Source of the DNA: Balanoglossus misakiensis
Lineage: Eukaryota > Animalia > Hemichordata
Direction: 5' to 3'
Length of the DNA: 64,000 nucleotides
Assembly (NCBI GenBank): GCA_040954595.2
Contig: CM082587.2
Location: 8,933,403-8,997,402 of the forward strand
The position numbers were made by a program, and so were the translations under genes. Position 1 is the first letter of the stretch. Each line of letters starts with the position of its first letter. Positions 2,714 through 59,000 of this stretch are shown in pieces. A model generated the notes under the pieces. That model had not been told where the DNA came from and did not search any database. It saw only the letters and a list, made by a program, of their open reading frames with translations.

Positions 2714-12584
<9,871 letters not shown>

Positions 12585-13589: not shown

Positions 13590-18684
<5,095 letters not shown>

Positions 18685-18893
18685 TATAAGACTGTTGTAT
18701 GAACATCTGAAGACAAAAAAACAGTTGCTGCGTTGCATGTGCTTCCTTGATACTGTAAGACACATTGAATATAATTAGCTGCAGGTTTTTTTCAGTGAAT
18801 TTGATATTTCAATCAATCAGCAGGTTTTTAAATTAGCTAAAAAAAAAATACACCCTAACCATAGTGCATATTGGGAATTTTGTGTATTAGCAA

Positions 18894-33348: not shown

Positions 33349-35712
33349 ATGACGAATACGCGGAGTTTTGTTTGCATCCTGATATTATGTTTCCTGTCAG
33401 TAGTAATTCTACGAGTGTGGATAGGTATGTATGTGATATGTAGACATTGCAGCAGTCGACGTACGATCGATCAGAATTCATTGCAGCTGTAGCCTCTCTT
33501 TTTCAATTTGAAATAAAACGCGACTTCTTAGGCTACCAGTAGGCCCACAAATTCAAGGTTTCTGAACAGAGAGAACAGAACACATTTAGTAAAATCGAGT
33601 CGGATAAAGGTCTATATGAATGGTAACAGAAATCTTGTAAGAATTTTAAGAAGTTAGATTATACATTGAACATATATTTGCCAATGAAATACCACAAACG
33701 CGGCATGGATGGCTAATGCTTCATAGGGCTTGGTGTATACACCAGCTGTTATACAATGCACTACATGGGCGAAGGTCACCTAGTCGATGCTTCCAGGCCA
33801 CGTCTTGTGAGAGAAATGTTTTGCATGACCTGAATATTACAATTAGGCCAAAATAAAAAAATATGTGCTGTTTCGATTACCCGATCTACCCTAACTTTAA
33901 CCCGCCAACCCTAAACTTTTTAGAGCTTCCTAAACTGGAAGTGGAAAAAACAATGTCAAATATACAAAATGTACGAAAATTGCTAGAATCTTGCAAGAAC
34001 TATGACGTCATTCTTCTACACTACGGCGGCCAAATATGTAAACAAAATTGCAAAATAAAAAAAAATTCCCTACCTACCTACCCTATTTTTGAAAACCATG
34101 TAATCGGAACAGCACATATTTTTTGGCCTTATGATGTAATCTGCTTGTAGGTATTCAATCACCAAAAGTTCACACACATACACATGAAGAACGCCGGGTT
34201 TATCTATCAAAGTTTCTCCTTTGGCAATAATTGTTTTTGCTTGGCCAAGTAGAATTTGCCTAATGTTTATACGTCAGCAGCGGAAATACTTTTCCTGTCG
34301 AACTTGCTGAATATTCTCTCCTTATACATGGCTTACTCTGTATGAAGAGAGACCTTTCAGTTTCTTGTCGATAAATCGCTTAGTTGCACATGTATTAAAA
34401 TTATGTAAGTGGTTAAATTTATGTGTATAACTACCAAACTAAATTCTTGTACCAAACTAAAGTCTCATACCGACCAAATAAATAGTATACATTGTACTCG
34501 AGTTCTTAATATCTCGTATTTTATTTTCAGGCTTTTCCAAGCAACGGCAATCAAACACAATCTTGAAATATGCGACAAAAGTTAATTTGAAATATGCTCC
34601 GGTAAGGATCAACACTAAGGTTACTCCACATGTTGGCAATAATTCTCTGCCCTTTCCTTTAGTAAACAATGTCAGACAGATTTCCTTCAAACATGCTACA
34701 AGAACAATGTAGTACAAGTCACCTTTCAAGGTATCAACCCTTTTGCAGACATGCCTTGACTTCATACCATGATTTCCTCCAATCAGCGTGAAACCAGCGG
34801 GGAATATGTCATCGACAATGATGTGTTGGTCGTATGTCTGGCATGCACACAGTTTTTGCGACGTGTTTATTGAACACAAACAGATCCCAGTAAAACACGT
34901 TTCTTTTACAGGCCACCTTTCCAACGCACCGTTCTCTCTTGAGCGAGATCTTTAATCAAAGAAGACATAATGTGGAACTCGGTTGCAAACATTTAATGAA
35001 CGAGGAGAACACGCGACCAAATGTAACCCTGCAAGATAAACACCTGATAGTTGACGACAAACATAAAATAATGTTCTGCATTATTGCCAAGGTCGGCACA
35101 ACCCAGTGGAGATATACGTTTTTGAAACTTGCCGGAACTTTGCGCCCGGACAAAGGAGTACATTCTCAACCTCTCAAAATGGCCCAAAGGTATATCCCGA
35201 AATACAAAAACTACACCAAGATCATGTTTGTACGACATCCATTTGAGCGGCTGCTGTCCGCTTTCCTTGATAAATTTATAGAAAAACCCCAATATAGCTT
35301 CCTGAAGGCGTATGGTAAGGAAATACGGCACGTCCCAAACCAAAATGGATCAGTAGATGATAGTTTAACCTTCGAAAAATTTGTGACCTTTTTGCTGAAA
35401 AGAAACCCCAGCAACATCCACTGGAAACCATATTCCAAAGCATGTGATCCTTGCAAAATAAGGTATGATTATATCGGAAAATTTGATAGTCTTTATGCTG
35501 ATGCGCAATACATTTTCAATGCAACAAATGTAACCGTCGAGATTAATGCAAAAGGTACTAGCCACGCGACAAATAGTTCCACCAAGATCAGAAGTTTCTA
35601 CAGGCAACTGAGCAAGAAGCAGGTTCTTGGACTATATGAGATGTATTACGAGGACTTTATATTGTTTGGGTATCCATATCCACGTTTTTATCTGGACTTA
35701 GCTGTAAACTGA
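33349..35712 (+). CDS. Golgi carbohydrate sulfotransferase (Sulfotransfer_2, CHST8-14/CHST11-like), 3 coding exons, ~315 aa
   Basis: Exons 33349-33424 (MTNTRSFVCILILCFLSVVILRVWI, type II signal anchor), 34531-34601 and 34912-35712 (948 nt, phases consistent). 5'-PSB-like motif IAKVGTTQW, 3'-PB motif FVRHPFERLLSAF, HWKP...CDPC..RYDYIGK, and Y..DF.LFGY. Confidence 0.88.
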
Positions 35713-37739: not shown

Positions 37740-39036
37740 ATGGCGGCGTTACTGGTAGCAAATGAATGGATATCAAACAACGCGATTTCCCCAGTCCCTT
37801 ACGTGAATCGACAACTGGCCATTGAGATTGCAAAGAAGACTGGATTACAAGTGCATTCGACAGTTATCGATCCCAATGTGTCTGAAGAAATAGACACGGA
37901 TGCCAGACAGTCCAACGTGACATTGATCAGACCCCACTTGACAAAAGAAATGAAAAGGCTGGATGAAAAGCCATCACGAAAATGGTTAATTCTGCATAAA
38001 GCTTATTATCCCAAAATCCAACGTTTGGAGCAACGTACCCCAGTACGCTTGGTGATTGGCCACGCGGCATGCGGGGAAGGCAACACAGCCGATGCTGCTT
38101 GCAGCATAGTTAAGCGTGTCTGTAAAGATGCTCATTTATGGATAATCATCCACATCATACCAGAACGTCTAATCTACCAGCCAAAGGAGTTTAGGCATTC
38201 CAGCGGATTACGAGAAGAGAAAGAAAAGGAAATAATGGAATATGCTGAAATGTCTGAGGTTATGGCTGCAGTTGGACAAACTGTATTTCGTCATTTCAAT
38301 AACCAATTTCGAAGTTTGGCTAGACGTGATGATCTCGTCTTCAAATGTTGTTTGCCATATCCGGATGATAAATTCTTGAGACTCTCCTTTAGGAAAGCAG
38401 AGATCCCGGTAAATGAACACTTGGAAATTCTCATGGTAGGAAACGCGGGCATTGAAAGTCCAGAGCAGTTGGGCCGGTTTGACAGTTTACTAGACGCAAT
38501 TTATGAAGCATCCAGCGGTCTTCAGTTTCCAAAGTTGAAGGTTCATCTTGAGAGCATCCCCGAAGAAGAATCAAAGTCATGTCTTATCAAAAAAATTGCC
38601 AAAAAATCGGGCCCTTCTAGTCTCAACATCGTTACCAGTTGCAATACCAAGACAGAAGCTATAGTGACTGCTGTGCAACAGTGTGCCGTGGTAGTTGACC
38701 AGGACTTGGAAAGTACCTTTTCCATCATTGGTTTAAACGCTCTTGCAGCAGGCTCGCCTTGCCTGGTCAGCAACCACTGCGGTTTGGCAGAGTTTGTCAA
38801 TCAGGATGAGACTCTCAGGCCTTATGCGGATGCAATCACGATTAACATCGGGACAGGTTATAACCGTGAATCTATGGTTGAAAAGTGGTCATGTTCACTA
38901 AAGAGGGTGCTTCATAACAACGAGAAAGAGTCTAGGAGAGCAGAGAAATTGCGTGACTTAATCCGAACTTCGGCGAGCGAGGGTCAAATTGCCAAGGCGA
39001 TGCAGATACTAATAGAACAGTGTCCTCGCGAAGAAG
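37740..39036 (+). other. Glycosyltransferase (GT-B, Glycos_transf_1/GT4-like) domain encoded by one large exon
   Basis: LLVANEW...VNRQLA, VIGH, H.IPE, A..SEVMAAVG, ILMVGN and LNALAAGSPCLVSNHCGLAE follow the pattern of invertebrate GT4-like domains. The E-x7-E motif is degenerate. Confidence 0.7.
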
Positions 39037-42000
39037 GTATGTTTTAGTGATATAGTCTTTACCTATTTAAATATATCCACCGTTGAGTGTCTTAACGTCA
39101 CTCGCCACAAAGTGCTCGTACCAGTATGGAAAATTTCGTGCACACAGCAAAAGAATAATCGTGTACGACATGATGGATGTTGCTGGAAACATCGTTTATC
39201 AATCCTTCTGATACATGTTTTTTCCATCTTATAATTCAACTCCTTAATGTGGAGTTTTGACAGAACATATACAGTGCACTGAAAATCACATGACTAAGTG
39301 AAGTTATTTGAATTTCAGCTGAGGCAGTAAATCGACCTGGCCCGTCTCCTGTCTCATCTGGAACCCGAACAGAACATGATAGAGTGCAGTCTAGCATCTC
39401 TGAAGCGCATCGCGTTCCTGGCAGTGGTGGTAATATACTTAATATGATTCTCCGCTCATTGCGAGGTCTCGCCATACTTGGTTACTTTACCGTAGCATCG
39501 GGTTGCTTGCCAAGTAATTCAGGTCAAGCTTTGTACTAAACTAGAATAGGTGCACAGTTTGATACATTTGTGTGTCGTTTTAAACGATGGGCCAGTCGTT
39601 GTTTGCCCTGTGTCGCATGAGAATGCCCGCCCATATAACTGCCCAGCCATGCAAGGTCTCGTGGAGTTCTGAAAATGGTCTATTGTCAGTTTGTTTGTGT
39701 TTATTGCAGTGCAGAATGTTTATTTATCAATAGCATAATATCATGTCCACGTAAGAAATTCCATTATTATACATCTGGCACCGAGAACAATAGAATTTAG
39801 CGTGCACTAAAAAAGCCGTACGGAACGGTACGTACGGAACGCATGTTAAATACGCCTTAAGTTTCAAGGCACCCCAACTCACTGTGTACAGGTATGCGTT
39901 GTTATGCATAATTATTCCGTGTTATATACTGTGTATGCTTATTTTCAAGTTCTTAAAAAGCTATATACTGACGATTTTCTCTTATTTACCACGCGGAGAT
40001 TTTTATCTTTTCAGGAGACGGTGCCCATAGAGGTGAACGACCTTCATCGTCAACGCATGCGCAATCGCAAGCACCACACAAATCAAAGAAGGGCACATCC
40101 AATAAGTCTGCAGCTGATGGTTCCGAAGACATAGGTAAATTTAACTATTTTAACTAAAATTTGGATCTGTCATCGTTGACGGTACAACCCATTTCTCGTT
40201 TCTTTTTACAATACTGCATATCGTTTCTTTTGGAATTGGGTGATGGGGTATACCTGGGGCCCACCCACATTCCCATGTTCAATGGGGGGGGGGGGGGGGG
40301 GGGGGTCATTCACCTTTTGATATCCACAAAATAGAATCCATCCCCAGGCTGAAGAAACTGACCAGTCCCTGAGAATCATTCTTTCCTCCCAGATATCAAG
40401 GTGACTGTACAAGATGGAATGGGTAATGAGCCTCAAGCAGAGCTTGAGCGAGCTGCCATTGACGTTATCACAAACGATGACCAATTACCAAACGTCAAGA
40501 AATATGTTCAGAGCAACGGCGCCACTATAGGCGACATTTCACATGGGCAAAGTCTCATTGTTTCTGTGAAATGTACAACGTTAGAGGGTCTGGAAAATAT
40601 CTGGTCTGACATGTGGACTGGAAAGCTGAACGATGTATTCCGGAAGGATCTGATTACAAGGAGGGTACTGACACAAGTGAAAACGACAACAATTGACCTG
40701 AAAGCGAATATCCGAACATGGGAATATAGAAGTTGCAAAGCCAACCTACAAGTTGCTCTGAGAGGTACCTTCTTGTTTTTAAGTTTTCGAGTGGGCTCTC
40801 ATGATGATTTTGCTGATACTAGCATGTCCGTTGTTCAGATTCAGTTATGTCATTATTATGTTTCCTTCAGCAAAACATCTTTACCAAACTTACATTCTTC
40901 AAGTAATAAATATGAAGAAAAACACATATTTATAATCAAATTATTTACATTTGGAACAGAGTCGAGGAAACCGTCATCCGGGATCCGCTGTAACATTAAT
41001 CTCTTGAACTTATGTACCATATGTGACCACGCAATATATAGGTCTAAACGGGTTAACCTATTGCATGGTCACATGGTATTTGTTTACAACTTAAATACTT
41101 CTGTTTTATTCATAGAACAAGAAGTCGTATCATCTAGTAAAGTTGGTGTGACCGAAGGTATAAGATCACTTCGAAGAAGGCGATCAATGAAGGTGAACAA
41201 TGTTTTCCTTGGAATAAATCAACGTTGTCATGTTTTCTAGGAAGCGCATTCTCTGTCGATGTTTAATGGGGCTATGCTTCCTGCGCCGAAAATGTGTTAC
41301 ATTGTGTGATTGTTGTTGATAAAATAATTGTCAGGGCGATGGAACAACTTTATCATTATAGCTATGCATTTAGGAAACTTTAGAAACCATCAATAGTTCA
41401 TGTGGTATTGTCAATATAGCTGACTTTATATTCTATCACCAAAGAAGCTGCACTCTTTCATCAATATAACATTGCCACAAAAAGTGTGTTTAAAGCTTCT
41501 GTTTTGAGGTTTCTAAATAAACAACCCCCCCCCCCCCCCAATGAACAGGTGTTATCTTCATCTTGGTTGTCGATCATATTACTTGTCATGAACATTTTAT
41601 GGTGGGGAAAGTAACTAAATTGTTCTATGCATCCATCACTATACAGATAATCCAAGATCCAATTCATGGTACTATCGAACTGGAGCCAGTATACACCACC
41701 ATCATCGATACACCTGAGTTTCAGCGTTTAAGGAATCTGAAAAAGATGGGTACAGTGAACTTTGTCTATCCCGGTGCAGTTCACACAAGATTCGAACATA
41801 GCATTGGGTAAGTGGTTGACTCAAATGTGAATTCAAAATTGGAACTTAGAAAAGGACAGGACTTAGTTGAATTGAGAAAGTAAAGTTTCATTACACAGTT
41901 ACAGAGGAACCGCCATTGGTTACAAGATTGTTAAGATATTTTGGATAAGGTTATGAATGCTAATGACTCAAGTTACTAACTTGTTTAGTGTCACAGAAAT

Positions 42001-45000
42001 CAGTTCAATAGGTACCAAAGTTGTATTCAAAAGTAAGCAACGATTGTATAATTGACAAACACTTGTTCATGTCAATTGGATGACTAGGACATGTCACCTT
42101 GCCCTGAAGTTAGTCAGACACTTGAAAGAGAATTATCAAGATACATTGGCGATAACAAAGGAAGAAGAACTTTGCGTTGGTCTTGCTGCACTTTGCTTCG
42201 ACTTGGGTAGGTACATGATTTGTGTGCAAGTTTTGTTGTCAGTACTACGATTACAACTGTGTTGTGCTGGTGGTGTTGTGTTGTGATGTACGTGTTCTGT
42301 TGTGTTGATATGTTGTGTTCTGTTCTGTTCTGTTGTGTTGATGTGTTGTATTGTTTTGTCCTATGTTACTTTCTTTTGTCTTCTCCTTTGCTGAGTTTTG
42401 TTGTGTTTTGCCCTTTTGTATTCATTTCTGTTGTTTATAAGAGGGGTTGCGTCACTGTGGTACGTTACCATGCATAACACAATCTTGTGCTGTTTTACGC
42501 ACTGATACGATCTCTTCCTTATCATTTAACGTTTTGTTTTGGAACAACAGGTCATGGACCATTTTCGGAGCTCTTTGAACAGCGCATAATACCATCACTT
42601 ATCGCAAATAAAACCATCAAAAATCCTGAAAACGAAGAGTGGAAAGTAAGTTGCTCATTGAAATCAACCTGGGGGTTCATTAGTGTTAAGTTCATTATTT
42701 TAAGTGACACAGTCTCATCGCCAAATATGGCCTAATACTTTCGTACCCAACCATATCAAAAATATGTAACTCTACAATAAATCATACATGCGTGAGATAC
42801 CGTCACAGTTATGTGAATTGTAACTCCCATGATGCCACATTCCTTGAGCAGTGCTGTCAAACATAATGTTGTTTATATATGCCACAGCACACACTTCTCT
42901 CTGTCAAGATTTTCGACTTGATGGTGGAAAAGTACAATCTACGAGATGTTTTTGATGAGTATGAATACCGCATGGATGACTTGCACCTCCATTTGGTAAA
43001 AGAAATGATCTACGGCCCTCTTCAGCTCGGTAAAAAAGACTATACCAAGGTAAAGTGGAAATTATATTATATCATGCTACCGTCCACCATTCTGATTAGA
43101 CGAGAGCGATGGTAAAATACTGTTTTACCACTGCTGGCAGTGGTAAAACGGGCCCCGGAACTAGCATGCAGCAGGGAAATGTGCGGTTAAACCACAGTTG
43201 TGTGGGATTAAACCAAATAAGTAACATAAAAACACTTGCTATATGTCTAGAATTGTACCAAAATCGTATGTTATTACTTAATTAATGGACCATTATTATG
43301 TTGGTTTTTTTGTGATTTTATTCGATTTTCCCCAATACATCCAAGAAAATTGGTTTTTGGTATTGAAATCTGATTTTAATACAACTGAAGCATTATTAAC
43401 TATATTTTTTTCTTCTTTTTTTAGGCTGAAACCTACGAGGCAACAAGTTCATACAGATATTTCCTGTATGAGGTAAGAAACATGATTCCAAACTATTTAA
43501 CAATATTGTACATTCATTTATTTCATTTATTCACAAGATGTCAGCATACTACGACCACGTGCATTATTCAGAACAATTAGCTTTCCAATAAATCTGTAAG
43601 ATGTAGTCATGAACTGAAAATGTGTTTACAGTCTAACTGATCATTCAAGGGTGAATGTCATGTTTGACTAGCAATCCCATTGTCAAGTTAATCTGTTTCA
43701 TATTGAACATACATGGACTTGTATGAAGAATTTCAAAATTTTAAGAGCTTACACATTATGTTCTGTAAACCACTTTATTTTCGCGAGCAATACATTTTCG
43801 CGAAATACGCGAGAGCCAAAATAGCGTGAAAATAAAAAGTCGCGTAATTTTTTTTGAAGATAACGATGAAGTGAATGAAATAAGAGAACACGAAAATTAA
43901 TGCTCGTGAAATAGTGCCTCTCTCGATATCGCGAAAATTTCAACTCGCAAAAATAAAGTGTTTTACAGTATTTGTCAACTTTAAACTGTTTGCAATAGAC
44001 TTTACTGAAGCGCTTGAAGAATGCTAATTTTACATTTTTAATGCCAACGCAGATAGTGTCGAATAGACTCAATCATTTCGACACCAAAGAATGGGACGGT
44101 TTTTCCCGTGATAGTCATCAGCTTCGCATAGTACATGAGATCGGGAACTCAATGCATGATCGATTCATCAAATTTGCAAGGGTATTGGAAGATCCTGACA
44201 CATTTAAATCTGCAAAGCGTCTGTGTTTTCGCGACAAGGTAAGGGCAGCTTTATATTGTGATCATATGAATTTTCCGAAACCAGGGACAAAGGTTATCTG
44301 ACAGACCAATAACTGATTTGCGTAATGTTGCTCATTTTTTTTATTCAAAAGAAGATATATTGTATATTTACATTGCTTGATATATTTTTGCACAATTTTT
44401 ATTTTGCGCGTTGACAGGAAGCCACCAGTACATGTGAAATGCTCCTGGCCAGAGACAGACAGAAAAACCTAACAAGTTTTCATCCAGTAAAACTTGCTAT
44501 TGATACCATGTAAGTAGATAGTAAATGATCTTTTGGCAAATGCATCTCATTTCCTTAGTGTTTAGTTTGTCAAGAGGTTGTAAACGTATATGTATATATA
44601 ATAACACATATGAGTGTTTCGTTCGGTGAAACTTCTCACATAGTGCAAATGTATGCCAGATTATAATTGTTATGTTGAATGAAGTGTGTAACAATGATGT
44701 CATGCTGTGAATATATGATTAATCATGATCTCATCTGTATGACGTCACACTTTCAGGATAACAGATGCCGTTGTTGCTGCTGTTCCTCATCTGAAACTGA
44801 GAAAGCGAAATGGGTGAGCAATTTGCCTGCCCCCCCCCCCAACAGTCTACATGACGAGAGATGGGGAGAGGGGGCAGAGAAAAAGAGGTGGATATTTGAA
44901 AGAGATAGTTGAAAGATAGTTGAGAGGTTGAGCCAGAGTGAGAGAGAGAGATGAAAAATAAGTGAGAGATATTTGAGAGGGGGGATCGAGGGAGAGGGGT

Positions 45001-48000
45001 GAAAGAGAGAGAGGAAAAATAAGTGAGAGATACTTGAGAGGCTTTGAGAGGGGGAGGGAGGGAGAGAGGGCTGAAAGAGAGAGAGGAAAAATAAGTGAGA
45101 GATACTTGAGAGGCTTTGAGAGGGGGAGGGAGGGAGAAAGGGTGAAAGAGAGAGAGGATGAGAGGCTAGAGAAAGAGAGTGAGGGAGGGCCCTCCATCTG
45201 TCGAGGGAGAGTGAGAGAGCAATTTTTTGATTACCATATGCATCATAGGTGAATTTCAGTTTGCAATTGGACAAAATCATGTCAATTTTTATAAAAGCTT
45301 ACATGAATACATAATTACAAATGTACTTGCAATGGTAGTACTAGTATTGTATTCATATACATGGCTAGATAACTTACATGTATATGCCTTCCTGCCTTCC
45401 ATCTTCCTTCTGTCCCTTGTTTGCTTATGTAGTGCAGAACTGTATGCACTTGATTTGACCGAAGCTTTGTATTGTTCAATTCAGGGAACTTGCTGACTTG
45501 TCAGAAATGCTGATTGACATGGACGTGTTCACAACCCTGGATGATAATACTATCTGGAACGAGATTCTCAAGTCATATGGTAATGAGAAGCTGGCAGAAG
45601 CCCGGTCAATACTGGAAAAGGTTCAGCGTCGTGCAATCTATAAGTTTGTGTATAGAATGGATATTCCTGACAACAAGAGCGAAAAGGTAACACTGTGTTT
45701 ACACATTATCTGTTGGTAATACACATTGCAGGCATCTCAAGTACAAGTAATTCTTGTTATAACCATGGAATTAACAGGGGCCAGGGGAAGATGCTTTGGT
45801 CCCATCAAGATTGTGGCAGTGCATTGATGGTTCAGTCGTTTACTTGAAATCCTTGCCATTACTTTTAATTAATATGCATGATGAATGCTGGGCCACCAAT
45901 GGACAGCTATATGTCCATACCATATCTCCATACCAACATGTATTTGCAAGATATGAGATTTTAGCAGACTTTGAACTAAATATGATTTTATACATGGATT
46001 TTTGTTTATGCCCAGGACATAAGAGTAGAAGACATATTGGAATGTAACGCAAATGATGGATCTTTGGGAAAAGAAGATCTGTGCTTAACGGTAAATATTC
46101 TAATTTTATATACCGGTAATACGCAGTCAATCCTGGTTCTTGTATTATGCGGAGGATTTCTCTTATTCTGATAAAACACTGGCAGTTTTCTAAACTGAAG
46201 TAACCAATCTCTCAAATGTCTGTGTATACTACTAACATACAAGTTCTACGACAGACAAAATATAGAGTGACTTGTTTTGCGGGTTTACTTCTTGAACAGT
46301 CACTGCTCATGTGAACAGAGTAGACACATAATTCTGGCTGCCTTAAATAGGTTTTCACTTTGCGCTAGGGGGTCAAATCACATTGCATTCTGGGCAAAAA
46401 GTCGACAACCCACTGTAGTAAGAGATAGAAGAAACGATATGTTTACTGTATTTCATGACTTCCTTTGGTCAAACATGTCTGTCTTTGTAGTTACCATATT
46501 AAACTCATTAAACTTTTTTTACATTTTGTTATTTTTTCTGTTAAAAAGTTTCAAAATGACCCATCATCACTTTAGCTTTAATATGAACTCCCATTTCTTA
46601 AACATGGCAAAAATCAGCCATCTTAAAAATTGTGTCGACCATATGTGATTTTCATCACTCACATAGGGAGCTTAAAACCTATTTAAGGTAGGGAGAATTG
46701 TAATGCAGCTTTTATGTTTGAAACACAGATGGTGACGAAGGATTATGGACTAGGAGATCAAAATCCATTGGATGAACTGCTTTTCTACAGCAAACAAATA
46801 CCTATTGCGAGGCACGCTCTTCCTGGGGAGGTGAGCACGCCCAGGATTTTAAAGATTTCATCTGTAAGTAAAGTCAAAATTAAAAGGGAAGTATAATGTA
46901 TTATCATCTTTTCTAGTAGGCAAACTTGACCTTGCCAATGGATAATGTAAACACAAAATTGTTGCATCTGTCTTTAAAGAGGTCTTCAGAAAATATACTC
47001 TAAAAGGTTTCAATTAGGTATTTTTCTAATCTGATTCAAACCAGATGTAGTGTTAGGTGCTGGTGATAGTTTGGGCTGTTCTGTTCTCTGTCTTGGCTGT
47101 TCTCAGATGTAGGAGCCACGCATTTTAATCACATTGGTATATTTCATGACTCTAACCTGCAGTAGTTAAGAAAGACAAATATTTTAAGTCCTGTTTCTTT
47201 ATGACATATGCTAACATTGCTTTGTATACAGTATAGCCTATCCATATTGTATAATGAATGTTTGCATTCATGATCTATGTATTGTTTGCCAGCCAATGTT
47301 TTAAATCATCTCCACAGGTATCAGATCACATGCCGAAGATATTTCAAGAACGGAAACTCTTTGTTTATGTGAAAGACCCCTCTAAGATGGATATCGCAAG
47401 ACGTGTACTAGAGGAATGGGCGGACAAAATCATTCTATCCAAGGTAATGTTGTTCATGGCCTTTATTGATCAACATAACCGACTAGCTATAAAACTAATT
47501 AAATAACTAATTACTAACCAACTTACAAACCCAAACATATTCACCAATTTATTAATTACAAATCTTGTAATTATTTGTTATTAATTAATTAATCAACCAA
47601 ATTCATCTATCAGATAATTAACCATTTACGTAATTCATTTAATACGGGGTGTGAGTTTTCCTATAAGTCAGTCAACCAATCTATCAATCAATCCTTGTGA
47701 ATGTGTAAAATTATATGTCTGATGTACACATGTGTTTGAAAAAAGATATGGAAAGAAGAGATCAGCATTCAATATAACCCTGGATAACTGTCGAACTTTA
47801 CTTGTGTCTCCCTCTCTCTCTGATTGCCTGTGTATATACCCAGCTTCAATACGTCTACCCCTCTGTATATTTTTCAAGAATATGCATATTGTCATTTTGT
47901 AGATTACCATGCCCTATGGTACAGAAGGAATTCCTATGAAGCCTGGATTGAAGCGTGAACACGGCGAAGGTTCTCAGGATGAAAGTGTTAAAAAGGTCCC

Positions 48001-48022
48001 AAAATTACATGAAAGAAATTAG
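37740..48022 (+). CDS. Chimeric protein: GT-B (GT4-like) glycosyltransferase-like domain + low-complexity linker + TRADD-N-like domain + SAMHD1-like HD/dNTPase module with a degenerate active site; 18 exons, ~1173 aa
   Basis: Exons 37740-39036, 39319-39429, 40015-40134, 40393-40764, 41116-41192, 41647-41807, 42088-42206, 42551-42645, 42888-43049, 43425-43472, 44053-44238, 44418-44509, 44757-44813, 45485-45686, 46016-46090, 46729-46830, 47318-47443, 47903-48022. All introns are GT-AG, phases chain correctly, 3522 nt with no internal stop. SAMHD1 motifs: MKIIQDPIHG, IIDTPEFQRLR, HTRFEHSIG, DLGHGPFS, FLYEIVSN, RFIKFARV, CFRDKE, DYGLGDQNP, FYSK, MPKIFQE. The join of the GT part to the HD part is inferred from splice phases. 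Confidence 0.82.
40393..40764 (+). other. TRADD-N-like domain exon (phase 1-1)
   Basis: GQSLIVSVKCTTLEGLENIWSDMWTGKLNDVFRKDLIT..VL......DLKANI...EY..CK..L matches the remembered TRADD-like N-terminal pattern GS.I..V.C.....L..LW.DY.SG.L. Confidence 0.7.
43763..43970. mobile_element. CTGTAAA...TTTACAG MITE (TA-flanked, Tc1/mariner-like); related copies at 6519-6683, ~11240-11398, ~56815-56955 and 57227-57440
   Basis: TIRs CTGTAAA.CAC.TTATTTTCGCGA / TCGCAAAAATAAAGTGTTTTACAG. 57227-57440 is a close copy. Confidence 0.8.
44851..45218 (+). repeat. Polypurine (GA-rich) tract with a ~70-bp tandem duplication
   Basis: GAAAGAGAGAGAGGAAAAATAAGTGAGAGATACTTGAGAGGCTTTGAGAGGGGGAGGGAGGGAGA is repeated. Confidence 0.85.
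46330..46699. mobile_element. Second copy of the 20363-20702 TIR element, in an intron of the chimeric gene
   Basis: Direct sequence similarity and matching TIRs. Confidence 0.75.
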
Positions 48023-56029: not shown

Positions 56030-59000
56030 CTACAATAGAAATCGGGCGTCCAGTAACTCCTGTGGGATTCCAGGTAAGTCTCTCACACTAACAGTCTTCT
56101 TCTTGCGCATGTGTCGTGTGTACTCGACGTACATTGACCAATTTGATGTTCTTGAACTGAAGAAGAGTTGGGCTCCTGCAAATAGTGTACAGATTACTTA
56201 AGGCAATGTCTGTGTCAGAATTGTACAATCATATCCATATTCTAAAGTTCATTGGTCAGATATTAACATTGTCAGTTCCAACGGTCACAGAACAGAACAA
56301 TCAACAAAACACACAGAACTAACTTGAGTTCTTGAAAGAAAGATATATGGACTTCCAGCAAAAAAAGACCAGGATGTGGTGTTACTGTTGGGTGTTTCGA
56401 AAATAGTAAGCCAACCCTGCCCCATATGTTGTAGCTGCCATCTATCAATCTCTGGGGGTGAAAGGGCTAACCCTTTCCCCCCAGTTCCCTCTTTAGAGGT
56501 CCAACCTTACCACAGAAAACAATGGGTTTGGACTTAACCATGGTGGTGAAAGGGTTAAACAGGTTTAACTGTACTGGTACTTACTTTCTGCCATTTCTTG
56601 TTCAATCAAAGATAACACATAGTTGTCATGTTCATACTTCTTGAGCGATGGCACTATCTTAGTTAAGTCCTGAGCATAGTACACACGTAGATCAGTGGCA
56701 CTGAGATAGGATCCTATGGTCTTGTGACAACAACAGAATAAATTCAGGTTGAATGATAACATTTTTGCAAACTTGGCAAGAGCCCTCCCCCCCCCCCAAA
56801 AAAAAAAAAAAAAATTGCGAAAATTAATAGTTGTGAAAGGACAATGTGTACAATTAAATGTTTGTCGGAGATAGGAGAATGCACAAATTAATTGTCACGA
56901 AAAATTCGCCTCATGATATTGCGAAAATTTCCTGTTGCGAAAATTTTTCGGTTTTAAAATATCTACACTATATCTGTGGTACAGCTCTTGTCCAAATTCT
57001 GACCAATCACCATCGAGTTACCTACCTGAGCATATACAGGAGTGGCTACATACAAACATGATAATTTTTCACGCTTCATTGTGGACTCGATTTCACGTAC
57101 AATAATCGGTGCTGCTTCCTGAAGCAATTGGAGATTCTGCGGAACCTTCTTTTCTTTACAGTCCCTGGGCTTTTTTGTACATCTACATATAGTACAATAC
57201 AAATAAGAAATTAAAATGCTGTGTTATACTGTAAAACTATTTATTTTCGAAGGTAATGAATTTTCGCAAAATACGCGAGAGCCAAAATAGCGTGAAAATA
57301 AAAAGTCACGTAATTTTTTGAAGATAACGATGCAGTGAATGAAATAAGAGAACGCGAATATTAATACTTGCGAAACAGTGGCCTCTCTCGATATTGCGAA
57401 AAATTTTAACTTGCGAAAATATAGTGTTTTACATGCAGTATATCCTTGACTACAAGGCCTAATGATAACTGAAAGAATCTTGTTGACTGTTCCACTATCT
57501 GGTGGGGAGGGTGGAGCCAAGGGGTGTGAGGACGGTGACAATTGTACAGTCCAAGTACCAGTCAAATGTCATTACACTTAAAAGGATATGAATGAAGGTA
57601 TAAGACTCATATTAAATTTGATTTTTTCCTGTTAGGGAGCTTTCAGTTGTTATATGGGTGGGGGATGGGAAATGGGGAGATTACATTTTACATGTAATTT
57701 CTCATGGCCCACCCCCCTTCATAATAATTGAAATCTCCCTTATTGGGAAATTACTAGTACTCACTGTGCTGAATACTCAGCGCTCTTATTTCTCCAGTGC
57801 ATTACTGCATAGTTGCCATGGCAAAGCTTCTCTCCTCCCTCCAAGGCTAAGCGACGAATGTAGGGCGCTCGCACCAGATATTTTTCAACGAGCGCTTCTA
57901 TCTGCGTCATACACGTGTAGTTTGCGTCGGAGGTCCTGAACGCTAGACACGGTTGGGGTGGATCTCCACGAATCGCGTCCTCGCGGAAAGTGGTGTAATT
58001 TTTATGAACGTCGGGGAACGTTATATTTTTGAAATAATTGGCAATGAATTTTATTGCGGCTTTGTTTGGGAACACATCGTCCTCACACATACGCATCTGG
58101 TATTTTGTGCACAACTCGGTTTTATACTGACGTCTCGGTACGGCAGCAATGAGGTTTCCCTTCTCAATACCACCATTGCACATGTCATAGAAGTCTTCGA
58201 ATGGAAGGGTGGGTAGCAGTTCGTTTAGTGCGTCGATGTCAAATGTCTGATCAAAGCGTCTGGGCGTGTCAATGTCTGTTTCCTGGAAAGAGTGGGGTTG
58301 GAAATCATGAGTGACTATGCCGAGTCTGTTTGCAACAGCAAATTGTAAAGTCCATCGGTACATGCTGTAGAAACTGCCCGCCCCGCCCGCTTGTTTATAC
58401 GCAGGTATAACAAACTGTTGCCGGAGTTTTCCTTGTTTTCCGTCTGTCTGGAATCGCGGGAATTCTTTCACATCCTTGCAATCTGGGCTGCCCAACGGCA
58501 CATCCGGGGTAGAAGTTTCCATCTCAGAATCCAACTCTTCGTTGTCCGAACCTTGAAGTTGCGAATCAAAGTCATGTGACCGACTTGTGTTTCCAATGGT
58601 GAAGTTCTCAGTTGTCAATGACAACCCTTGTGTGCCGGAGCTATGAACATCAATATTGGACTTGACACTTTTCTGCGAAAATGGTACATATTATGGTTCT
58701 TAGATGTAGTGTACAAAGAAAATGTATAAAACTTTCTTAATTTATTACAAACTGTACTATACACCTTCAGTAGATCATGAGTTTTGTACCAAATATTTAG
58801 CTATTATGGTAGCCCGCATATGTACCAGTAACTGAACTTAAAATAGATGACTAAACAGCTGAATAACAAAAAAAACACGAAAAATAGTAATATGGTGTTT
58901 TTACCATCACCCTTTTATAATATATTTATTTTGTTCTAACATAGGAATCACCATGATGGACATACATTATTATTTGATTTTCGCGTGAACTGCTTATATC

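What the first reader, a model, noticed from the sequence alone, without database searches (positions are those of the whole stretch)
41647..46830. SAMHD1 module is a pseudoenzyme: catalytic residues lost, allosteric sites largely kept
Aligned by eye to human SAMHD1 (numbering from memory). Catalytic and substrate positions are replaced: H206F (HD becomes FD, codon 42197-42199), D311K, H215E, Q149K, E234T, K312E, Y315G, H370K, Y374S, Q375F. H167, D207, R164, H210, H233 and R366 remain. GTP-site residues K116, D137, Q142, R145, R451 and K455 are retained, as are dNTP allosteric residues R333, F337, R352, K354, H376 and K523; N119Q, N358S and K377P differ. Losing the active site while keeping the frame, splice sites and allosteric sites argues for repurposing rather than decay. 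Possible roles are a GTP/dNTP pool sensor, an integrated decoy for viral SAMHD1 antagonists, or a dominant regulator of an active paralogue.
Basis: partly seen in the sequence, partly recalled or inferred. Interest (0 to 1): 0.85.

Follow-up and report, generated by a model that had tools for sequence, protein, structure and literature searches.

The report
Dead SAMHD1 fused to immune adaptor
An acorn-worm-like animal keeps an unbroken gene in which the antiviral enzyme SAMHD1 has lost its cutting-site residues but kept its regulatory nucleotide pockets, lying in frame behind a sugar-transferase-like domain and a predicted cell-death adaptor domain, so it likely works as an immune nucleotide sensor rather than as an enzyme.

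Summary
Observation confirmed: every substitution listed maps correctly. Catalytic positions are specifically eroded (4 of 14 kept in three hemichordate dead copies; 12 expected), while GTP-site residues are kept 6 of 6. Allosteric retention only equals or slightly exceeds fold background (13 of 15 vs 9.9, P 0.05). N119Q, N358S and K377P also occur in intact-looking sister paralogues. The module ends an 18-exon, 1173-aa frame: GT4-conflict, TRADD-N-like, dead SAMHD1. The same protein exists in Ptychodera flava (XP_070560518). Its GT4 domain has also lost the donor-binding EX7E motif. GT4-TRADD-N proteins with variable tails are a described immune family (PMC8195603); I found no SAMHD1 tail there. 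Dead SAMHD1 arose independently in carp-like fishes, snails, an annelid and amphioxus, there fused to a Death domain. This scan earlier noted similar dead copies in Thorarchaeota and bacteria. Best reading, untested: a GTP/dNTP-gated clustering sensor signalling through TRADD-N (0.35); rivals are nucleic-acid sensor, decoy, or paralogue regulator. No RNA, dN/dS or complex model was available. New variant of a known kind; interest 0.68.

The parts
37740..39036 (+). Coding exon 1: ATG and GT4-conflict glycosyltransferase domain (aa 1-432), donor-binding motifs replaced
   Evidence: PF20706 E 8.3e-33, 114 bits; 54.7% identical to P0001; motif loss
38712..38738 (+). EX7E motif position: E to S (aa 325) and E to N (aa 333); a Glu stands one residue upstream (aa 324)
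   Evidence: weak PDB alignment agrees (E 1.2)
38439..38474 (+). GR...K phosphate-binding positions: R to N (aa 235), K to G (aa 245); an Arg stands at 246
39319..39429 (+). Predicted linker exon 2 (low complexity)
   Evidence: open frame, GT-AG, phase 1-1; weak homology only (linker 17 of 65 identical to P0001)
40015..40134 (+). Predicted linker exon 3
   Evidence: open frame, GT-AG, phase 1-1; weak homology only
40393..40764 (+). TRADD-N-like domain (aa 510-633)
   Evidence: 59.8% to P0001; Atlas 0.87 to PF20694 clusters; model pLDDT 84; top hits TRADD-N 1f3v prob 0.89, E 0.036 and 1f2h Z 5.8; no Pfam hit
41116..41192 (+). Basic linker exon ending in the K116 equivalent (41190-41192)
41647..41807 (+). 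HD module exon: N119Q, D137, Q142, R145, Q149K, V156, R164, H167
42088..42206 (+). HD module exon: H206F (42197-42199), D207
42551..42645 (+). HD module exon: H210, H215E
42888..43049 (+). HD module exon: H233, E234T
43425..43472 (+). HD module exon
44053..44238 (+). HD module exon: D309, D311K, K312E, Y315G, D330M, R333, F337, R352, K354
44418..44509 (+). HD module exon (helix alpha13): E355, N358S, H364L, R366, H370K, R372L, Y374S, Q375F, H376, K377P
44757..44813 (+). HD module exon
45485..45686 (+). HD module exon: R451, K455
46016..46090 (+). HD module exon
46729..46830 (+). HD module exon: K523 (46792-46794)
47318..47443 (+).
47903..48022 (+). Predicted last coding exon with stop codon
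   Evidence: weak match to P0002 tail (E 0.12)

Best explanation
The gene encodes, in one open frame, a GT4 domain, a predicted TRADD-N adaptor and a SAMHD1 module that lacks two of its four metal ligands but keeps its GTP and dNTP pocket residues, so it likely acts as an immune sensor that would cluster on binding GTP/dNTP and signal through TRADD-N. Shown by sequence: domain order, open frame, loss of catalytic residues, retention of allosteric residues, same protein in P. flava. Predicted: intact SAMHD1 fold (on the paralogue P0002) and TRADD-N fold. Inferred: no dNTPase activity (H206 and D311 mutants of human SAMHD1 are inactive, PMC7045340); GTP binds AL1 and dimerises, dNTP binds AL2 and tetramerises; a rise in dNTPs, as during virus replication, clusters the TRADD-N domains, which recruit TRAF or death-fold partners. 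The GT4 domain likely transfers no sugar and serves as scaffold, brake or second sensor.
For: AL1 6 of 6 and 15 of 15 review-named allosteric positions invariant across window, P0001 and P0002, against 266 of 422 overall and 11 of 18 catalytic. Catalytic loss against conservation-matched columns P<1e-4. K523, H376, V156 and E355 are kept; K523, V156 and E355 contact the AL2 nucleotide (PMC7045340) and are not in the RNA-contact list of PMC10711556. P0002 model: 429 residues at pLDDT 90 or more, TM 0.86-0.92 to human SAMHD1. The C-terminal slot of GT4-TRADD-N proteins holds ankyrin, propeller, LRR, AIG-GTPase, DED or Bcl-2 modules (PMC8195603 supplement file 4). Independent pairing with a death fold: Branchiostoma lanceolatum P0248, dead HD plus Death PF00531 E 3.6e-15, not one clade with the hemichordate copies (AU p 2e-5); P. 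flava P0003, DED plus HD N-terminal half with D207N. Precedent: KomB, a dead nucleotide hydrolase that senses dITP (bioRxiv 2024.12.20.629578).
Against: Allosteric retention is only marginally above fold background in the matched test: 13 of 15 vs 9.9 (P 0.05), 16 of 22 vs 13.7 (P 0.18), 21 of 22 invariant vs 17.3 (P 0.03); over nine lineages AL1 47 of 54 vs 0.81 expected, P 0.19. The canonical tetramer network is changed (D361E, H364L, R372L, N358S), though intact invertebrate enzymes vary there too (R372 in 63 of 176). The same AL1 and basic residues bind ssRNA/ssDNA. Most other dead SAMHD1s found carry no death-type adaptor (of 30 scanned proteins only P0248 had one), and P0002 is annotated without GT4. 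The TRADD-N match is modest (E 0.036; Z 5.8 tied within 1 with unrelated ferredoxin folds). The fusion rests on splice prediction and on a RefSeq model.
Confidence: 0.35

Rival explanations
1. Nucleic-acid sensor: the kept AL1 pocket and basic surface bind guanines of exposed ssRNA/ssDNA, and the strand bridges dimers and clusters TRADD-N.
For: In human SAMHD1, AL1 (D137, Q142, R145) binds G in ssDNA/ssRNA and induces dimers and tetramers in which the D361/H364/R372 network is broken and the active site empty (PMC10711556 passages). The window keeps 8 of the 11 named cationic positions basic and has changed exactly that network.
Against: K332D, R371N, R372L remove three named contacts; triphosphate and deoxyribose contacts K523, V156, E355 are kept.
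Confidence: 0.2
2. Integrated decoy: the dead module mimics the host's active SAMHD1 paralogues to trap pathogen antagonists, and its modification or binding fires TRADD-N.
For: It derives from a lineage-specific expansion with intact-looking paralogues, several on the same 47 Mb contig, and sits in the variable slot of an immune family.
Against: A decoy gives no reason for all 15 allosteric positions to stay invariant; no antagonist of invertebrate SAMHD1 is known to me (recall); positive selection could not be tested.
Confidence: 0.15
3. Dominant regulator: with both enzyme domains dead, the protein joins and tunes active SAMHD1 tetramers or active GT4-TRADD-N complexes, as pseudokinases or cFLIP do.
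For: Both enzyme domains lost donor or metal residues; it shares N119Q, N358S, K377P and a hydrophobic residue 372 with intact-looking sisters P0004/P0326, so interfaces could be compatible; cypriniform fishes carry active and dead modules in one chain.
Against: Does not explain the adaptor fusion by itself; hetero-oligomers were not modelled.
Confidence: 0.15
4. Fold-only scaffold or slow decay: the HD module is kept as a spacer or protein-binding body, and allosteric residues survive only as part of the fold.
For: Allosteric retention is close to fold background.
Against: Open 1173-codon frame with 33% divergence from P0001 and no lesion; Lys/Arg positions that vary among intact enzymes (K116 74%, K455 58%, R352 78%) are kept in all three dead copies.
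Confidence: 0.1
5. Altered enzyme: a remodelled pocket acts on another substrate with fewer metal ligands.
For: H167, D207, R164, D309, D319, R366 are kept in all three, and Q149K, E234T, K312E, Y315G are shared by all three.
Against: H206, H210, H215, H233 and D311 positions differ among the three copies (F/L/L, H/H/R, E/S/N, H/Y/H, K/S/S), the signature of relaxed constraint (11 of 18 invariant vs 16.8 expected).
Confidence: 0.05

Closest known systems
SAMHD1 HD domain (human; PDB 4q7h, 7ujn, 4zwg)
   Same: Same fold and allosteric AL1/AL2 residues; P0001 matches at E 3e-87, P0002 model TM 0.86-0.92.
   Different: H206 and D311 ligands, H215, Q149, E234, K312, Y315 replaced; no SAM domain; fused behind GT4 and TRADD-N.
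GT4-TRADD-N (DEDD2-clade) immune proteins of hemichordates, cephalochordates and cnidarians (Kaur et al. 2021, PMC8195603)
   Same: GT4 then TRADD-N then a variable C-terminal module, in a marine invertebrate.
   Different: The tail is a dead SAMHD1 (term absent from main text and supplements; one file was cut when stored); the paper treats GT4 as an active effector, whereas here EX7E and the Arg are replaced.
Ptychodera flava XP_070560518.1 / XP_070560517.1 ('uncharacterized protein')
   Same: Same three-domain order and same losses in both enzyme domains; 66.6% HD, 59.8% TRADD-N, 54.7% GT4 identity.
   Different: Unannotated; orthologue or old paralogue not resolved.
KomB of the Kongming anti-phage system (bioRxiv 2024.12.20.629578)
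   Same: Nucleotide-degrading enzyme turned into a catalytically dead nucleotide-binding module in immunity (works-like analogy).
   Different: HAM1 fold, binds ligand in the old active site and activates a SIR2 effector; here the active site is eroded and the allosteric sites are kept.
Branchiostoma lanceolatum XP_066269128.1 (dead SAMHD1 plus Death domain) and cypriniform tandem SAMHD1/dead SAMHD1/crystallin proteins
   Same: Metal ligands lost, AL1 kept 6 of 6 or 5 of 6.
   Different: Independent origins, other partner domains; annotated as ordinary SAMHD1-like or uncharacterized.

Membership tests
SAMHD1-type dNTP triphosphohydrolase (active enzyme) | SAMHD1 HD-module sequence and fold | tested here: met
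   (fold tested on the paralogue P0002 with an alignment mostly of intact enzymes)
SAMHD1-type dNTP triphosphohydrolase (active enzyme) | Metal ligands H167, H206, D207, D311 | tested here: not met
   H, F, D, K in the window; H, L, D, S in P0001 and P0002
SAMHD1-type dNTP triphosphohydrolase (active enzyme) | Catalytic and substrate residues H215, H233, E234, Q149, K312, Y315 | tested here: not met
   only H233 of these six kept
SAMHD1-type dNTP triphosphohydrolase (active enzyme) | AL1 residues K116, D137, Q142, R145, R451, K455 | tested here: met
   6 of 6 in all three dead copies
SAMHD1-type dNTP triphosphohydrolase (active enzyme) | AL2 residues and alpha13 tetramer network | tested here: inconclusive
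   R333, R352, K354, K523, V156, E355 kept; N119Q, N358S, H364L, R372L differ, several shared with intact-looking sisters
SAMHD1-type dNTP triphosphohydrolase (active enzyme) | GTP/dNTP-induced tetramer and dNTP hydrolysis | not testable with these tools
   needs biochemistry
GT4-TRADD-N immune proteins (Kaur 2021) | GT4-conflict domain (PF20706) | tested here: met
   114 bits vs cut-off 26; Atlas 0.98 to cnidarian PF20706 clusters
GT4-TRADD-N immune proteins (Kaur 2021) | TRADD-N domain following GT4 | tested here: inconclusive
   three concordant but modest leads; no Pfam hit at E 1; DEDD2 clade not tested
GT4-TRADD-N immune proteins (Kaur 2021) | One transcript joining the domains | not testable with these tools
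   in-frame GT-AG model and colinear RefSeq protein; no RNA available
Active GT4 glycosyltransferase | EX7E motif and basic donor-phosphate residues (PMC8760489) | tested here: not met
   S325/N333, N235, G245 in the window and equivalent losses in P0001, vs 28 of 28 bacterial rows; E324 and R246 lie one residue off and might compensate; no animal comparators
KomB-like dead nucleotide sensors (Kongming) | HAM1 fold with SIR2 partner | tested here: not met
   HD fold, no SIR2 or HAM1 Pfam hit; analogy only

The most novel reading that the evidence does not exclude
Animals have repeatedly turned SAMHD1 into a non-catalytic receptor for GTP/dNTP pools and wired it to cell-death adaptors (TRADD-N in acorn worms, a Death domain in amphioxus): a nucleotide-pool-sensing arm of animal innate immunity that parallels bacterial dead-enzyme sensors such as KomB, here in a protein whose two enzyme domains are both dead.
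Probability: 0.3. Interest if true: 0.9.

Novelty: new variant of a known kind. Interest (0 to 1): 0.68.

Why it matters
SAMHD1 is known as an enzyme that starves viruses of dNTPs, and its non-catalytic roles are debated. Natural dead copies that keep the allosteric pockets separate the two functions and give ready-made test proteins. If the pockets gate clustering of a death-type adaptor, animals would sense nucleotide pools directly as an infection signal, as bacteria do. The survey also shows that many database entries named 'SAMHD1-like' in fishes, snails and amphioxus cannot be active enzymes.

Tried and rejected
No whole genome is held for the window, so paralogues in the same animal and orthology were not resolved. 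No RNA holder was listed; this is no evidence on expression, and no reads were laid. dN/dS was not possible: no DNA of the P. flava genes could be fetched. Animal GT4 comparators were not found: the homologue search returned only P0001 among 7987 scored candidates; tblastn of plasmids gave no match; none of 458 pattern matches in prokaryote genomes was confirmed; PF20706 at E 1e-28 gave 0 of 301 genomes twice, and 51 of 401 in a third group, 3 of them strong. The window GT4 had no PDB sequence match as a whole. Long-protein search with the HD part found only P0001 as a GT4 fusion among 61 hits. Rejected: frameshifted pseudogene (open frame); misalignment artefact (HMMER, tblastn and MAFFT agree); one origin of all dead SAMHD1s (AU p 4e-4); N119Q/N358S/K377P as signs of AL2 decay (present in intact-looking sisters). 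Of 35 non-intact rows, eleven were left out of the lineage test: nine that look like broken gene models (P0129_456, P0152, P0157, P0158, P0241, P0256, P0291, P0297, P0315), plus P0249 and P0130_1; redundant cypriniform and P. flava rows were reduced to one per lineage. The 12-of-12 allosteric result (P 0.0075) used a list trimmed after seeing the data and is not relied on. The BREX preprint holds no SAMHD1 passage. Earlier-findings look-ups by place, by sequence and by two word sets returned nothing.
Full report
Observation. The region is an intron-containing animal gene. Thirteen GT-AG exons from 41647 to 48022 translate without a stop into a SAMHD1 HD module. The first exon matches human SAMHD1 structures at E 2e-16. 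Human numbering was fixed from the alignment of the closest relative, Ptychodera flava XP_070560518.1 (P0001), to PDB 4q7h and carried over by MAFFT. Unlisted changes are L150M, D330M, H364L, R371N and R372L.

Is it more than chance? Of 212 HD modules aligned, 177 keep H167/H206/D207/D311. At columns at least 90% conserved among them, the window keeps 8 of 16 catalytic, 8 of 8 allosteric and 30 of 31 other positions (Fisher p 3e-4, 0.022 and 1.0 for catalytic vs other, allosteric vs catalytic, allosteric vs other). Site lists follow passages of Morris and Taylor 2019 (PMC7045340), with some substrate residues recalled. Across the three hemichordate dead copies (window, P0001, P0002), 15 of 15 review-named allosteric positions are invariant, against 11 of 18 catalytic and 266 of 422 overall. 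With columns matched for family conservation, catalytic loss is extreme (4 of 14 kept vs 12.0, P<1e-4), but allosteric retention is only at or slightly above background: 13 of 15 vs 9.9 (P 0.05), 16 of 22 vs 13.7 (P 0.18), 21 of 22 invariant vs 17.3 (P 0.03). So the active site is selectively relaxed and the allosteric sites are held as tightly as the fold, which is compatible with, but does not prove, nucleotide binding. N119Q, N358S, K377P, a hydrophobic 330 and 372, and Q375F also occur in the partial, intact-looking sister paralogues P0004 and P0326, so they predate the loss. An AlphaFold2 model of P0002, built on an alignment mostly of intact enzymes, has mean pLDDT 84 and TM 0.86-0.92 to human SAMHD1.

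The whole gene. tblastn with P0001 shows two more domains upstream. An 18-exon model from 37740 to 48022 gives 1173 residues, no internal stop, all introns GT-AG, and 54.7%, 59.8% and 66.6% identity to P0001 in its three domains; two linker exons and the last exon have weak homology support. Domain 1 is GT4-conflict (PF20706, E 8e-33). Domain 2 has no Pfam hit, but the Atlas places it with TRADD-like N-terminal clusters (0.87), and its model (pLDDT 84, three sequences) finds TRADD-N first by Foldseek (1f3v, probability 0.89, E 0.036) and by VIA (1f2h, Z 5.8, rmsd 3.8, 98 aligned, tied within 1 with unrelated folds). Nearest relatives make the source an enteropneust hemichordate related to P. 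flava; it was not identified further.

The GT4 domain also looks dead. Against 28 bacterial GT4 rows (28 of 30 loci passed an ORF filter; three are strong PF20706 members), the window and P0001 both replace the Arg of the GR motif, the following Lys, and both Glu of EX7E, each present in 28 of 28 rows. The first Glu and its neighbours were part of the filter and are circular; Arg, Lys and the second Glu were not. A Glu and an Arg lie one residue off and could partly compensate, and no animal comparators were obtained. EX7E and the basic residues bind the nucleotide-sugar donor (passages of PMC8760489). Two N-domain histidines are kept.

Origin and recurrence. With catalytic columns removed, the three dead copies group together (SH-aLRT 95) inside a hemichordate clade (100) with intact-looking P. 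flava and Glandiceps paralogues; P0185 is a partly eroded sister that keeps D311. Other modules lacking metal ligands occur in cypriniform fishes (14 rows, often behind an intact module and before crystallin domains), in the snails Batillaria, Lymnaea, Physella and Biomphalaria, in the annelid Dimorphilus, and in Branchiostoma lanceolatum, where a Death domain follows (PF00531, E 3.6e-15). Six changes are needed on a 30-row tree, and AU tests reject one clade for all dead rows (p 4e-4) and for hemichordate plus amphioxus (p 2e-5) (quick LG+G4 trees, groups named after seeing a first tree). Pooled over nine lineages, AL1 is kept 47 of 54 (86% in intact rows) and non-defining catalytic residues 77 of 126 (94% in intact rows); AL1 vs matched background is not significant (P 0.19). 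P. flava P0003 joins a DED to an HD N-terminal half with D207N.

Mechanism. In human SAMHD1, GTP in AL1 bridges two monomers and dNTP in AL2 completes the tetramer (PMC7045340). A module that keeps these pockets but cannot hydrolyse would be a ligand-gated clustering device. In GT4-TRADD-N proteins the position after TRADD-N holds variable modules such as ankyrin, propeller, LRR, AIG-GTPase, DED or Bcl-2 (Kaur 2021, PMC8195603: passages, part 6 of 17, supplement searches), and vertebrate TRADD-N binds TRAF2 (title of 1f3v). I therefore favour a GTP/dNTP sensor that signals through TRADD-N, with the GT4 as scaffold or brake (0.35). The kept pocket also binds G in ssRNA/ssDNA, forming tetramers without the D361/H364/R372 network (passages of PMC10711556); the window keeps 8 of 11 named cationic positions, so a nucleic-acid sensor is the main rival (0.2). 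Decoy (0.15), regulator of active paralogues (0.15), fold-only scaffold (0.1) and altered enzyme (0.05) follow. KomB (passages of bioRxiv 2024.12.20.629578) is a working analogy, not a relative.

Novelty. Five literature searches (listings and abstract starts only) found no paper on dead SAMHD1 paralogues in animals or on this fusion. Kaur 2021 has no 'SAMHD1' in text or searched supplements; 'GT4+HD' occurs four times in each of two files, and the places shown were one bacterial row; supplement file 4 was cut when stored, so a match there cannot be excluded. A 2025 family survey mentions no dead class in its phylogeny section (PMC12042053, passages and section 25). The library lacks most subscription papers. 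Earlier notes of this scan describe the same pattern in Thorarchaeota and a bacterial fusion; I did not check them. Verdict: real, maintained pseudoenzyme in a described immune architecture with an undescribed tail and a second dead domain; new variant of a known kind, interest 0.68.

Noticed in passing
P0181, P0128, P0132, P0133, P0146 and kin: Cypriniform fishes carry a conserved family: intact SAMHD1 module, dead module (H206Y, D207N, D311R/H/C; AL1 kept), then beta/gamma-crystallin domains; 14 dead rows in one clade.
   Followed up: partly
P0248 (Branchiostoma lanceolatum XP_066269128.1): Dead SAMHD1 (H206R, D311A) fused to a C-terminal Death domain, annotated as ordinary SAMHD1.
   Followed up: partly
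P0003, P0004, P0185, P0326, P0237, P0180, P0002 (P. flava, 47 Mb contig): An expanded SAMHD1 cluster with intact-looking, half-eroded (P0185) and dead copies, and a DED fusion; many gene models are fragments.
   Followed up: partly
P0162-P0165, P0171, P0192, P0203, P0215, P0321, P0276: Further SAMHD1-like proteins lacking metal ligands in gastropods and an annelid; Biomphalaria copies carry a repeat insertion in the C-terminal lobe.
   Followed up: partly
window 41116-41192 and 47903-48022: Basic patches in the TRADD-N/HD linker (four Arg, aa 653-656) and in the tail; possible nuclear localisation or nucleic-acid-binding signals.
   Followed up: no
window 34894-35712 (+): Sulfotransferase_2 exon (PF03567, E 4e-46), the upstream neighbour gene.
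   Followed up: no
window about 13590-18690 (+): Ras-family (KRAS/NRAS-like) gene, recognised by eye.
   Followed up: no
window about 4540-10270 (-): Aldehyde dehydrogenase 3-like exons, recognised by eye.
   Followed up: no
window 57761-58690 (-): 309-codon open frame without a Pfam hit, probably an exon of a minus-strand gene reaching down to about 52400.
   Followed up: partly
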